In this document: in pieces, positions 12,001 through 21,000 of the stretch
Layout of the letters: every line of letters starts with the position of its first letter
Position numbering within the stretch: position 1 is the stretch's first letter
Source of the DNA: Nitrospinaceae bacterium
Lineage (GTDB): Bacteria; Nitrospinota; Nitrospinia; Nitrospinales; Nitrospinaceae
DNA: 64,000 nucleotides
Assembly: GCA_965223665.1 (NCBI GenBank)
Contig: OZ245011.1
Location: forward strand, 2,272,001 to 2,336,000
Direction: 5' to 3'
Program-made: the position numbers

Positions 12001-15000
12001 GAAATCCTGCGAACAATTCACTTCCGGTTTCCGTGTCCCAAGAAATTTTCCAAGACATTCAGAATAGGTCCGATTGGGCTTTGGATATTCATTCCAGTAA
12101 TCTCTTCCTTAAAGAACTTCCACAAATAAGGATAATAGAAGAGTTTTCCAAACACTTGCTATCAGCAGCAGAAAAAACTAATGCTGATTTGATTTGGGTT
12201 CACCCGATGGCAGGTTTATTTGAGTCCACTTTAGGTTACAATTTAAACCAACAAAAAGTAAAAACACTAGTAATAGAATCAGGAATTTGCTTAAGGATTC
12301 ACCAAAATTATTGTGAGCAACTTTTCCTGGGAATAATAAATTTATTACAACATTTAGAAATTTTGAATTTTTCGCAGGCTTCTCAATTTGATCTTAAAAT
12401 ACCAAAAATTATTCAACCCACCCAAGTTTCCATAAATTGCTCCAATAAATCCGGGTTGTTTATCAGCAAAGTCCGTTTAGGGCAATACCTTATTAAAGGG
12501 GATCGGATTGGAGAAATCGTTGACCCCCAAGACGGAAAAGTATTGGAGGAAGTCTTTGCAGAACAGGATGGCCTACTTTTCACCTTAAGAGAACATCCAT
12601 TAACATATTCCGGTGCCCTATTAGCTCGAATTGCCTTGGAGAATGAGCCGGAACCATGAAAAAAGAAGTCTTTTCAATTGCCTCCCCTTTTGGCGAGCCT
12701 TATAAGCTGCATAAAAATTATTGGGGGAACAAAAATTTTTATGAAACCTTGACAATAGTAAGTGGTTTACAAGGTGATCGCTTAAATAGTGTTTGGGTGG
12801 CTTCCCGTTTATCCCATTTTTTACAAAATATTGAAGATGGTTTAGAAACTGGCTATGAATTTGGAGGAAATATTCAAATTTTTCCTGTCCTCAATTTTCG
12901 GGCTTTGGAATTCGGTTCGTCAGTTTGGGGATTTGATAATCTGGATTTTGACTATGCTTTTCCAGGTATTGAGGAAGGGGATCTTTCAGAAAAAATATGT
13001 AATATCCTTTTGCAACAATCCATTGACACTCATTATGGAATCGTTATTCAAACGGGAGACCATCTTTATGAAGAAGCTCCACACATTAAATTGTTCAACC
13101 CTAATCGAAACTTAAAAAGCTTGGCGCGTTGCTTTGGATTAAATGTGGCACGGCAAATACCTGATTCTCCTACCCTAAGTTTAAATCTAGTAAAAAATTG
13201 GGATACCATGGGTATTCCCGCGCTTCTTATAGTTTCAGGACGAAATAAAATTTTAGATCCTACATATTGTGATATTATTTTTGAAGGGTTAATTAATTTT
13301 TTAATCATGACAGGGTTCCTAATCCACAAAGAAGAAAAAGGTAAAAAAAGTGAAGTTGCATTTTATAACCCAAAATGCGAACTCGCAATAAAAACAAATT
13401 TTCCTGGACTTTTTATTCCTGAAATAAACGTTGGTTCTTATATAAAAGTCAATCAAACCATTGGAAAAGTAATTGATATAATAGAGGGAAGAATATTAGA
13501 AGAGATTAAAGCACCAGAGGATGGATTATTGATATCACTGAGATATCATCCCTTAATTCACGAAGGGGAAGCTATAGCTACTTTACTTACCGAAAAAAAC
13601 CGGCGATGGTTTTGGCCATTTCCATAATTTATTAAACAATATTTGAAATAAATTTTACAAATCCATAAAGCGAACAGATTATTCCTACCACAGTCAACGT
13701 TAATCCACGAATCGCTCTAATTTTTAAGATTCGCATACTTTCCGAATCTCCATCAATAAACGCCCATTTGGCCTTAGGGTCTCGCATTTTTTCTAACTCT
13801 TTACGCTCCACCTTTGCGCACCAAGTTAATAATCCTATCCCAATTGCAAAAATAACTAGCCCTGTTAACACGGATTTCTTTATTAAGTTTAAACGTTATT
13901 GGAAATAATCTATACAAAAAGTATAACAGTATGCGCTTAAAAATCAAAGGGTTCAAAGAATATTATCCAACAATTCATAAGTTGCTGAAAAAGGCCTAAT
14001 TCGATAAACTTGGGTAAAATTAATAAGAGATTTTTTCTTTAAAATTGTTTCCAATAAAGAAACCTAGCTAAAAATTATTGATATATCGAGATTAGTAGTC
14101 CTTTTCTTTGTTAACTTTAAAAATTAGTTCCACTAAATTTTTCTTTGCGAAACTAATTTTAATTAAACTAATTATGGTGCTTATTTCTAGAAATTTACTA
14201 ATTGAACAACCTGCCCAAGGTTATAGGTTCTCAATTGAACCCTTTATACTTTCCCATTTTGTAAAACCAGAGTCTAATAGCAAAGTTTTGGACATTGGAA
14301 CCGGATGCGGGATCATTCCGCTTTTACTTATTACAAAACACAAGGATTTAAAAATAACAGGCATTGAAATCCAAAAATCGCTTTTTCAACAGGCAAAAAA
14401 AAATATTCAAACAAATGAATATGAAAATTTTATTCAAATCATTCACGACGACTTTTATTCTTTAAAAGAAAATTATTCGAAAGAACACTTTGATCTTATT
14501 GTTAGCAATCCTCCCTATAGAAAAAAGAACAGTGGAAGGATAAACCCTTGCAGTGAAAAAGCAATAGCCAGACATGAATTGTCTCTTAGCCTTTCCAATC
14601 TAGTTAAATACTCTTCCCCTATTCTAAAAACCACCGGAAAAATAATATTAACTTACCCAATAACACGTAGGGATGAGGTTATAGGCGAATTAAGAAAAAA
14701 TAACTTTTTCCCGAATAGGATTTTAATTGTCAAAGGACATAAAAAAACTAAATCTAGTTTTTTTGTTGTTGAAGCTTCCAAATCAAACCAAACACTTTTT
14801 CCCAGAGAGAGTGAATTAATAATCTTAAATGAGGATGGTTCTTATACAGAAACCATGCAGGAAATATATGCATCCTTTAATAATTCTGGCTGGCCCAACC
14901 GCTTCTGGGAAAAGTGAGCTGGCTGTAACTTTGGCCCGCCACCTACAAACAGAAATTATCAGTGCGGATTCTATCCAGGTTTACAAACACTTTGACATAG

Positions 15001-18000: not shown

Positions 18001-21000
18001 AATCCGCCACCAATTCCTCCACGAAGTCTTTTTAAATTGCTTGCTCCCTAAAAAATCCGATATTTTTATTTTATTTCAAAAAAATCCCATTAAAAACCTA
18101 TAAAAAACTGATTATAAGGAAATTTTCTTCAACTTTTTCTAATTAATCTTATAGAATAAAGAAAAATTTTCGTGCCTATGTAGGTGGCACAGGGATAAAG
18201 CAGGGTGAATGATAATCCAAAAAATTCTGTAAAATTAGATTCTGAATTATGGGTGGAGCGTTATGGGGATCCCATGTTTCGGTTTACTCTCGCCCGGGTA
18301 AAAGACCCTGTTACCGCAGAAGAAATTGTTCAGGTAGCATTAGTTGCCGCCTTACAATCCCAAAAATCTTTTGCGGGGAAATCTTCCGAAAAAAGTTGGC
18401 TGTTTGGGATATTAAAACATAAAATACTTGATCATTTCCGTTCATTAAAAAACCAACGCACCTTTGATTTGACTTCGGAAGATGATACGGATCCTTATGA
18501 TATTGCGTATGATGCGTCGGGTCATTGGATCACTCCTCCAAAAGATTGGGATACCGACCCGGAAAAAGCATTGGAAAACCAACAACTATTAGAAGCACTA
18601 ACTGATTGTTTATCCCATCTTTCAGATAAATACCGGAATGTATTTGTTTTAAAGGAAATGGAGGGGTTAGATTCTGAAGAAATATGTAAGGAATATGATA
18701 TTCAACCGACCAATCTTTGGGTAATTCTTCATAGAGCTCGAAATCAACTTCGGCTATGTCTGGAAAATAAAAATTGGTCAGGTAAAAAATAAAATGGATG
18801 GAATCTTTTAACATATGAACTGGTTGACTGGATTATTTAAAATAACTTGTAAAGACACATCGCCTCTGATTTCTGAAATGATGGATCATTCTCTACCCCT
18901 GGGTCGTAAGTTGAGGGTAAGAGTTCATTTGGGAATGTGCAAAGTCTGTCAAATTTATCAAAAACAGTTAAAATTATTGAGAACTTTAGCTAAAAAAATT
19001 TCAGAGGAGGATAATCCTTCCTATTCCAAAGTAAGTCTGACCGAAGAATGCAAGGAGAGAATGAAAGAGGCATTAAAAAATAACCGATAATTCAGTTTCC
19101 CATTTTGAAAGGAACTAAGTAATGAACGATAGTCGAATGACTAAATCTCCAAAAGATTCAAACCAGGTGTCCCGTGATAACGTAAGGGATTTTTATTCTA
19201 AAGCTGCAGTTTCTACCCAAGAAAGTTTATGTTGCCCAGTTAACTATGATCCTACAGATTTATCTCACATTCCAAAAGAGGTAATGGAAATCTCTTATGG
19301 ATGCGGTAGTCCGGTCAATCGGGCAAACTTGTCTTCAGGAGAATCTTTGGTTGACTTAGGATCTGGAGGAGGAATTGACTGCTTTATTGCTGCAAAAATT
19401 GTAGGGCAAAATGGACAAGTCACTGGAATTGATATGACGGAAAAAATGCTCCAAGTCGCACAAAAAAATTCAGAACAGGTAAGTAAAAACTTAGGATATA
19501 ACAATCTTGAATTTAAGCACGGTTTTCTTGAATCAATTCCAATGGAAAACGAATCGGTAGATGTTGTAACTTCTAATTGTGTTGTCAATCTGTCTACGGA
19601 TAAAAAAGAAGTTTTTTCAGAAATTCACCGGATTTTAAAACCCGGCGGTCGTTTCGTGATTGCAGACATTATTTCCGATCAAGTCGTACCCGAGGAAATG
19701 AAAAATAATAAAGAATTATGGGGCGAATGTATTTCGGGGGCATTGACTCTGGAAGAATTTTTAAGTTTTGCTAAAAATTCAAACTTTCATGGTTTCACTG
19801 TTTTCAAAGATTATTTATGGAAAAAAGTGGAAGGCTTAAAATTTTACTCTTATATAATCACAGGTTTCAAACCCCTGGTCCTTGAAGAGTTATCTTGTTG
19901 CGCGCCCGACTTATTAGCTATTTATTCGGGTCCTTTTCCTTCAGTTAATGTTCAGGGTACTGATTTTGCCACCGGTGCTTCTGTAACTGTTGATCAAAAT
20001 TTAGCTAAGGTGCTAGGGTCTCCCCCTTATAAAGGAATGTTTAATATAATTGATCCTGAAAGTGAATCAATCAAAGAGGCTGATGATTCCTGCTGTGGGT
20101 AGTTTATAAAAAGGATTGCTGAATACTAAAAAAATAATCTGAATAAACACGCTTTTTTCCAGAATAATATTTTCATTCTTTATTTTTTCCTTCATCTCAA
20201 AAATCTAAAAATTTATCAATTGGATTTTCTACTATTTGGCCGTTAAACTAAATTGATAAACCCAAAATTTTTCTGATTTGGAGGAATTCCCCAATGACTT
20301 ATAAAAGTTTAGTAAAAAAAGAAAAAATCAATGCAATTATTCGCACTGAAGGTGAAAAGATTGAAGGGAGTGTGCATATAATACCCGAAACTCGCCTTTT
20401 GGACCTTTTAAACAGTGAAAGAGAGCAATTTATTCCTGTTAAAGAAGCAAAAGTTTATAGTGAAACATCAGGAAAATTACTTTACGAATCGGAATTTATC
20501 GCCGTCAACAAAAACCATGTTATTGTAATTATCGAAGGCCAACCATCTGAACCAGCACTGGTATAAGAATTAACCAAAATTTTTTTATCGATTTACAGCT
20601 TCATGGTCCACATACCATTCTAATTTTTCCGAATTAATTTTTGCGGCAGGTAAATGTTTTCCTTCCTCCGAGCCATTTAAAACCTTATTTAAGGTTTTTG
20701 ATTTATCTTTACCTGTGACCAGAAATGAAATTCGTCGGGCGCGGTTAATAGTATCCAACGTAAGTGTAATGCGTCTTTGACTTGTCTGAGGATGTTCTGT
20801 CAAACCGCAAATGTTTAAGGGATCTGAAGTGATTCTTCCCTCAGGGAAAATTGAAGCCGTATGACCATCGGCTCCCATTCCTAATAAAACCCAATTAAAC
20901 TCAATCTTACCTTGATTAAAAGCCTTAAAAAATTTCTGAATTTCATTTGCATATCTCACAACCTCTTTTTCGGGAGTTTCTTCACCTCGAATTCGATGGA

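What a model noticed while it worked through the whole genome (the two positions that open the first line are those of the whole stretch)
14868..18035. tRNA modifier MiaA is fused through a membrane segment to a TPR-lytic transglycosylase throughout the order
The only MiaA is the first 300 aa of a 1055-aa frame that runs through a signal-peptide-like hydrophobic segment into TPR repeats and a lytic transglycosylase domain. The fusion is fixed in Nitrospinales and absent from the other orders sampled, tying a tRNA-modifying enzyme to the membrane and to a periplasmic cell-wall enzyme.
Evidence so far: Pfam IPPT 37-279, TPR, SLT 897-1011 (30); miaA over cut-off (41). Full-length matches in 19 of 20 relatives, the other in two pieces (34). 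miaA frames are 887-1130 aa in 49 of 50 order genomes and 312-362 aa in 9 of 9 other-order genomes (43). The hydrophobic linker is kept in 8 of 8 relatives, with no conserved internal start codon (210, 214).
(Added by a program. Inside this text positions count along the whole contig: contig position 2,272,001 is position 1 of the stretch shown here. "Call 12" and the like, gene names such as g00115 and contig names such as C1 are that model's own, and its searches are not shown. The text may have been shortened before it was handed on; [...] marks where a part breaks off. The agent that wrote the report below was given it as the finding of a first reader that could run no searches.)

Follow-up and report, generated by a model that had tools for sequence, protein, structure and literature searches.

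The report
tRNA enzyme and wall-cutter share gene
In a whole order of nitrite-oxidizing bacteria, an enzyme that modifies tRNA inside the cell and an enzyme that cuts the cell wall outside the membrane are made from one gene, joined by an internal export signal that is probably cut to separate them.

Summary
Confirmed. Window 14868-18035 is one 1055-aa frame: MiaA (1-305), a 15-residue hydrophobic stretch (308-322), then TPR repeats and an Slt70-type lytic transglycosylase. It is the genome's only miaA. The junction has no stop in 94 of 96 order genomes with a miaA match; the other 2 are cut by contig ends. All 15 miaA genes of other orders have their own stop, and in 10 of them a separate, signal-peptide-bearing slt orthologue follows directly. 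The fusion thus most likely arose once from an adjacent miaA-slt pair. The linker looks like a retained cleavable signal peptide rather than a permanent anchor. Its core is 12-16 residues, as in free orthologues. A signal-peptidase-I-type site follows in 68 of 81 fusions (shuffles 34±4; the genome's other internal hydrophobic segments 12 of 58). No start codon is conserved. Key motifs of both halves are invariant. Best reading: a precursor split by signal peptidase I into cytoplasmic MiaA and periplasmic Slt (about 0.62). Cleavage is inferred, not shown. No report was found in the searchable literature.

The parts
14108..14917 (+). Upstream SAM-dependent methyltransferase, TrmN6/YfiC-like (best NCBIfam hit, below cut-off). 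It overlaps the miaA start by 50 nt, so probably the same operon.
   Evidence: matched upstream in 84 of 85 order loci
14868..18035 (+). miaA::slt fusion gene, 1055 aa
14868..15782 (+). MiaA tRNA A37 dimethylallyltransferase domain (aa 1-305), including its last helix (xxLxDKILxxL), which serves as the positively charged n-region of the internal signal
15783..15833 (+). Pro306 (Pro in 76 of 81) and the hydrophobic h-region (aa 308-322) of the internal signal peptide
   Evidence: the only segment with a 19-residue hydropathy of 1.6 or more (80 of 81 linkers, none elsewhere in the proteins)
15834..15845 (+). c-region Q-S-F-A. Predicted signal peptidase I site after Ala326; the alternative A-Y-S site lies two residues on.
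   Evidence: inferred from motif, cleavage not shown
15846..17555 (+). TPR/superhelical alpha-solenoid region (about aa 327-896), structurally like the non-catalytic part of Slt70
17556..18035 (+). Lytic transglycosylase catalytic domain; Glu918 (codon 17619-17621) in RQES, plus the GLMQ, YNAG and ETRxY motifs
   Evidence: (E918 in 76 of 76)

Best explanation
One gene makes a precursor that is split at the inner membrane into two enzymes for two compartments. (Shown) The frame is continuous, both halves keep their key motifs, and the linker is the ancestral Slt signal peptide with its start and n-region replaced by MiaA's last helix. (Inferred) MiaA folds in the cytoplasm. The internal h-region enters the Sec translocon N-in/C-out, and the ~730-aa TPR-Slt part is exported. 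Signal peptidase I cuts after the A-x-A-type site, releasing a soluble periplasmic Slt70-like enzyme. MiaA is left with a ~20-residue hydrophobic tail, either held at the inner face of the membrane or freed by RseP. (Inferred) It arose once, in the order's ancestor, from an adjacent miaA-slt pair. It may be fixed mainly because reversal needs a new stop and a new start at once; no adaptive link between the enzymes is needed.
For: Adjacent separate genes in 10 of 10 miaA loci of families f7-f9, several with overlapping stop and start. Fused proteins form one group in both trees: MiaA SH-aLRT 94, Slt local support 100. The h-region is 12-16 aa in 81 of 81 fusions, the same range as in 35 free orthologues. 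A strict [AVSTGC]-x-A site follows in 68 of 81 against a shuffle mean of 34.5 (sd 4.0, max 46 of 1000), and a loose site in 81 of 81 against 61.1. Genus-weighted, 17.8 of 20 against 9.8±2.1. In database fusions, 111 of 119 (these overlap the genome set). Controls: 20 of 35 free orthologues, 159 of 298 N-terminal hydrophobic segments of this genome, and 13 of 59 internal ones, this protein included. No lipobox and no twin-Arg in 81. Two signal peptidase I genes, RseP and MiaB are present. All 8 tRNAs with an anticodon ending in A have A37-A38. RseP removes remnant signal peptides in E. coli (PMC8144685, passages).
Against: No protein-level or RNA-level evidence of processing. The site test is a simple motif rule of my own, not SignalP. 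Relatives are not independent. 13 of 81 lack the strict site. The 19-residue hydropathy (mean 2.0) is also compatible with a short membrane anchor. The internal-segment control contains many soluble proteins rather than true anchors. A site can be present and still be cut only conditionally, as in RsiV.
Confidence: 0.62

Rival explanations
1. Uncleaved single-pass membrane protein: MiaA inside and TPR-Slt outside stay covalently joined, co-locating tRNA prenylation with cell-wall remodelling.
For: The linker reaches a hydropathy of 1.6 or more over 19 residues in 80 of 81. No reversion in 94 readable genomes. Cytoplasmic enzyme + one helix + outside domain is a known topology (PrkC/PknB kinases, recalled).
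Against: The short core and the peptidase-type site are kept across sequences as little as 35% identical, while the linker is otherwise among the least conserved regions. A permanent anchor would have no reason to keep Ala at -1.
Confidence: 0.15
2. Conditional cleavage: the site is real but is cut by signal peptidase only on a cue such as TPR or peptidoglycan binding, as with the anti-sigma factor RsiV. Release of Slt and of MiaA would then be regulated together.
For: Signal peptidase cuts RsiV at an internal site only with lysozyme bound (PMC4183432, abstract). The helix-Pro element before the h-region is conserved (Pro 76 of 81, K/R 78 of 81). RseP is present.
Against: No sequence feature separates regulated from constitutive cutting. 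The conserved helix is explained as MiaA's own last helix, since free MiaAs have a similar one.
Confidence: 0.12
3. Slt is mostly made from its own in-frame start inside the linker, and the fusion is a by-product of a lost miaA stop.
For: The genome uses Shine-Dalgarno sites. All 5 genomes of genus g9 have an SD-like word and an ATG 11-12 codons before the h-region. A Met lies within 20 codons of the h-region in 14 of 81.
Against: 33 of 81 have no ATG/GTG/TTG in the 20 codons before the h-region or its first two. At the best column, Leu codons follow each gene's usage, with TTG 12 against 9.0 expected and CTC/CTA/CTT/TTA 26 times. SD plus start is seen in 7 of 81, about the 6.6% background. 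MiaA would still always be made as a fusion.
Confidence: 0.07
4. Assembly artefact or a decayed half.
For: G094 has a frameshift inside miaA (59% complete genome).
Against: Continuous junction in 94 of 96 genomes, and invariant motifs in both halves.
Confidence: 0.01

Closest known systems
MiaA, tRNA (adenosine(37)-N6)-dimethylallyltransferase (TIGR00174; PDB 3exa, 3foz, 2zm5)
   Same: Above the equivalog cut-off, same fold (Foldseek E about 1e-16), P-loop, DSxQ, GGTGLY and KRQxTWF motifs kept.
   Different: No stop codon; it continues into an export signal and a 730-aa secreted enzyme. Databases label the whole protein simply as MiaA.
Slt70/LtgA/Cj0843-type soluble lytic transglycosylases with a superhelical N-terminal region (PDB 1qte, 5ohu, 5o1j, 6cfc)
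   Same: Catalytic domain similarity, structural alignment over about 690 columns, invariant Glu. Free TPR-Slt orthologues of 680-805 aa with ordinary signal peptides are widespread.
   Different: The signal peptide is internal and has no start codon of its own. Scores are below the NCBIfam cut-offs for Slt70 (98 against 536) and BB0259 (153 against 234).
Bradyrhizobium japonicum FbcH, a cytochrome b-c1 precursor split at an internal signal sequence
   Same: One bacterial gene, two proteins, cut at an internal signal peptide (recalled; the paper was not held, and searches did not retrieve it).
   Different: FbcH joins two subunits of one membrane complex. Here a soluble cytoplasmic enzyme is joined to an unrelated periplasmic enzyme.
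Bacillus subtilis RsiV, an anti-sigma factor cut by signal peptidase
   Same: Signal peptidase cuts at an internal site in a membrane protein (PMC4183432 abstract).
   Different: RsiV is a regulator destroyed on a cue. Here both halves are housekeeping enzymes, and no cue is known.
Other long MiaA proteins (MiaB-MiaA; MiaA-Met_gamma_lyase; one MiaA-rotamase)
   Same: MiaA does fuse with neighbouring genes elsewhere.
   Different: Among the 79 new hits, the only hydrophobic segment directly after MiaA was in two further MiaA-TPR fusions. One apparent chimera with a transporter (P0197) was set aside.

Membership tests
MiaA (TIGR00174) | Score above the equivalog cut-off | tested here: met
   329 against 148.65 bits
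MiaA (TIGR00174) | P-loop G-x-T-x-x-G-K, Asp of DSxQ and C-terminal KRQxTW motifs | tested here: met
   G9, T11, K15, D34, S35, Q37, K271, Q273, T275 and W276 are each 81 of 81 and match solved MiaA. Catalytic roles are recalled.
MiaA (TIGR00174) | Substrate tRNAs with A36-A37-A38 and the downstream enzyme MiaB | tested here: met
   8 of 8 tRNAs with an anticodon ending in A; MiaB over cut-off
MiaA (TIGR00174) | i6A37 formation | not testable with these tools
   needs an assay
Family 1 lytic transglycosylase, Slt70-like | Catalytic Glu-Ser, GLMQ and YNAG motifs | tested here: met
   E918, S919, G933, M935, Q936, Y992, N993, A994 and G995 are each 76 of 76
Family 1 lytic transglycosylase, Slt70-like | Superhelical N-terminal region in front of the catalytic domain | tested here: met
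   Model with mean pLDDT 85.6; Foldseek hits to 5ohu and 1qte, E about 5e-14, target TM-score 0.53-0.61
Slt70 equivalog (NF008631) / BB0259 flagellar transglycosylase (NF047373) | Score above the curated cut-off | tested here: not met
   98 against 536; 153 against 234
Sec/SPI signal peptide (internal) | Positive n-region, short h-region, small residues at -3 and -1 | tested here: met
   Net charge +1 or more before the h-region in 69 of 81; h-region 12-16 aa; site in 68 of 81 strict and 81 of 81 loose
Sec/SPI signal peptide (internal) | Actual cleavage in vivo | not testable with these tools
   no proteomic data found
Lipoprotein or Tat signal | Lipobox Cys or twin-Arg motif | tested here: not met
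   0 of 81 for each

The most novel reading that the evidence does not exclude
The precursor is a trans-membrane coupling device. Signal peptidase cuts it only on a cell-wall cue, or it stays partly uncut, so the release of a wall-cutting enzyme and the location or activity of the A37 tRNA prenyltransferase are controlled together. That would link envelope remodelling directly to decoding of UNN codons.
Probability: 0.15. Interest if true: 0.9.

Novelty: new variant of a known kind. Interest (0 to 1): 0.63.

Why it matters
If cleaved, this is a natural chromosomal precursor in bacteria that uses a whole folded enzyme as the front end of a signal peptide and delivers unrelated enzymes to two compartments. 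Such cases are rare; I recall only FbcH. It is fixed across an order of major nitrite oxidizers and has unfused sister lineages for comparison. That makes it a clean case for asking whether an order-wide fusion is adaptive or simply irreversible. It is also a candidate molecular marker for the order. Databases name the protein MiaA only, so the order's Slt70-like wall enzyme is hidden under the wrong label.

Tried and rejected
Conserved internal start codon or Shine-Dalgarno site: not found. Internal promoter: 18 consensus hits against 17.3±5.4 in shuffles, so uninformative. Lipoprotein or Tat signal: absent. A second stand-alone orthologue of this TPR-Slt in order genomes: further matches are weak and partial (E 1e-13 or weaker) or are pieces of the same gene at contig ends; 31 matches were not listed. 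Independent MiaA-Slt fusions elsewhere: among the best 150 representatives at 50% identity, all full-length two-domain hits are 36-81% identical over their whole length and look like this family, but they carry no taxonomy. The MiaA-rotamase protein P0155 has no hydrophobic linker, so it is not a parallel case. RNA runs: no RNA holder listed for a relative's locus. Literature: searches (MiaA, lytic transglycosylase, fusion; Nitrospina, miaA; dimethylallyltransferase, fused, transglycosylase, tetratricopeptide) listed no paper on this fusion. Word searches in the main text of PMC3578206 and PMC10839748 found no 'transglycosylase'; their supplements were not read. One search listed no Nitrospina proteome with peptide positions. 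The careful MiaA tree did not finish and the quick tree was used; the Slt tree is FastTree only. No complex prediction was run, because the halves should lie on opposite sides of the membrane.
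Full report
Observation. Window 14868-18035 (+) translates without a stop to 1055 aa. Pfam places IPPT at 37-279 and SLT at 897-1011, with TPR repeats between. The miaA equivalog scores 329 bits against a cut-off of 148.65. It is the only IPPT match in a 98.6%-complete genome. MiaB and substrate tRNAs (8 of 8 with an anticodon ending in A carry A37-A38) are present. A model from a 64-row alignment (mean pLDDT 85.6) is confident for both halves and low (under 50) at 308-328, the linker. Foldseek matches MiaA structures (E about 1e-16) and Slt70-type enzymes over about 690 columns.

Distribution. Of 120 genomes searched, 102 are of the same order and 96 of those have a miaA match; 15 of the 18 others do. 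I read the junction in 94 of the 96, and in all 94 the MiaA end runs in frame into the linker. G039 and G070 are cut by contig ends (G070 not fetched). G094 (59% complete) has a frameshift inside miaA but an intact junction. The 75 complete relatives are 1017-1060 aa, with pairwise identity from 35% to 98%.

Origin. All 15 other-order miaA genes end at their own stop. In families f7, f8 and f9 (10 of 10 loci) a separate orthologue of the TPR-Slt gene follows directly, with its own start and signal peptide, often overlapping the miaA stop. In f5 and f6 (5 genomes) the slt orthologue lies on other contigs. The fused proteins fall on one side of a single branch in both trees: MiaA, 29 of 58 rows, SH-aLRT 94, quick tree; Slt, 22 of 61 rows, support 100, FastTree. 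Both trees used a chosen subset of the fusions and are midpoint-rooted, so a single origin is supported but not proven. In the fusion, MiaA's last helix (xxLxDKILxxL-P) abuts the hydrophobic core directly; free MiaAs end in a similar helix. The Slt start codon and n-region were therefore lost, and MiaA's helix took their place.

Both halves look functional. Across 81 sequences G9, T11, K15, D34, S35, Q37 and the KRQxTWF residues are invariant or nearly so. Across the 76 that reach the C-terminus, so are Glu918, GLMQ, YNAG and the ETRxY Glu and Thr. Activities were not tested.

What the linker is. It is the only segment reaching a 19-residue hydropathy of 1.6 (80 of 81 linkers, none elsewhere in these proteins). 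Its core is 12-16 residues, the range seen in 35 free orthologues (6 of 41 rows were dropped for lacking a hydrophobic N-terminus). Net charge before it is +1 or more in 69 of 81. A strict [AVSTGC]-x-A site lies 3-11 residues after the core in 68 of 81, against 34.5±4.0 when the same residues are shuffled (maximum 46 in 1000 shuffles). A looser small-x-small site is present in 81 of 81, against 61.1. Weighting by genus gives 17.8 of 20 against 9.8±2.1. Database fusions give 111 of 119 (overlapping set). With the same rule, free orthologues give 20 of 35, this genome's N-terminal single hydrophobic segments 159 of 298, and its internal ones 13 of 59 including this protein (many of those are soluble proteins, so the control is rough). 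Thirteen of 81 lack the strict site, mainly in genera g20 and g9, but keep a loose one. There is no lipobox or twin-Arg motif. The rule is my own and the relatives are not independent, so this is strong circumstantial evidence, not proof.

Internal start. 33 of 81 have no ATG/GTG/TTG in the 20 codons before the core or its first two. Leu codons at the most suggestive column follow gene usage and include non-start codons 26 times in 56. SD plus start occurs in 7 of 81, near the 6.6% background; 5 of the 7 are genus g9, where an internal start cannot be excluded.

Mechanism. Most likely (0.62) one precursor is inserted N-in/C-out and cut by signal peptidase I (two genes present) after Ala326. 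That yields periplasmic TPR-Slt and cytoplasmic MiaA with a short hydrophobic tail, which RseP (present) could remove, as E. coli RseP does for remnant signal peptides (PMC8144685, passages). Rivals are an uncut single-pass protein (0.15), cue-dependent cutting as for RsiV (0.12; PMC4183432, abstract) and an internal start (0.07). Why it is fixed is open. Reversal needs a new stop after MiaA's last helix plus a new start and n-region, which could make the fusion a ratchet. A looser link between miaA and a wall enzyme exists in the E. coli amiB-mutL-miaA-hfq superoperon (PMC12249760, passages), but that is only a parallel.

Known and new. Both domains belong to known families, though the Slt half fails the Slt70 and BB0259 equivalog cut-offs. 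Databases hold the fusion under the name MiaA. Searches listed no paper on it, and word searches of two Nitrospina/Nitrospinota genome papers (PMC3578206, PMC10839748; passages only, supplements not read) found no mention. Most subscription papers are outside this library. The closest processing precedent, B. japonicum FbcH, is recalled and could not be retrieved. Other MiaA fusions seen (MiaB-MiaA, MiaA-Met_gamma_lyase, MiaA-rotamase) have no internal signal.

Verdict. A real, order-wide and apparently unreported fusion; a new variant of known kinds, most likely a signal-peptidase-split precursor for two compartments. Interest 0.63.

Noticed in passing
window 14108-14917 (+): A TrmN6/YfiC-like methyltransferase overlaps the miaA start and is matched upstream in 84 of 85 order loci and in families f5, f8 and f9. 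Two probable A37-modifying enzymes would then head the same operon.
   Followed up: partly
window 18205-19090 (+): An ECF sigma factor and zinc-finger anti-sigma pair lies directly downstream; the sigma gene clusters in 58 order loci.
   Followed up: partly
window 11691-13627 (+): Two tandem succinylglutamate desuccinylase/aspartoacylase-like genes (only the first hits Pfam); a similar upstream family clusters 68 ORFs across order loci.
   Followed up: no
L059, L060, L062, L063, L064, just after the miaA stop: In family f9 the slt signal-peptide region is encoded by short repeated words followed by what look like their reverse complements, a hairpin-like repeat element at the miaA-slt junction.
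   Followed up: no
L093-L097 (genus g9): All five have an SD-like word and an in-frame ATG 11-12 codons before the h-region, which could give Slt its own start again.
   Followed up: partly
G000:C1:2183644-2188037 (-), outside the window: Three near-identical SLT-domain ORFs (345, 300, 309 aa) without evident signal peptides, and a 1105-aa SLT-bearing ORF at C1:2156393; possibly a prophage or mobile region.
   Followed up: no
L105, L106 (G046); G047: G046 holds two copies of the fusion (5% contamination). G047 (92% complete) has no match to either half.
   Followed up: no
L058, L151 and other sister-order loci: An amidohydrolase-like gene (label guessed from sequence) follows slt in f5 and f7-f9, suggesting an ancestral methyltransferase-miaA-slt-amidohydrolase order.
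   Followed up: no
P0156-P0184, P0121-P0139: Recurrent MiaB-MiaA fusions (one named Patescibacteria group) and MiaA-Met_gamma_lyase fusions show that miaA fuses with neighbours in other lineages too.
   Followed up: partly
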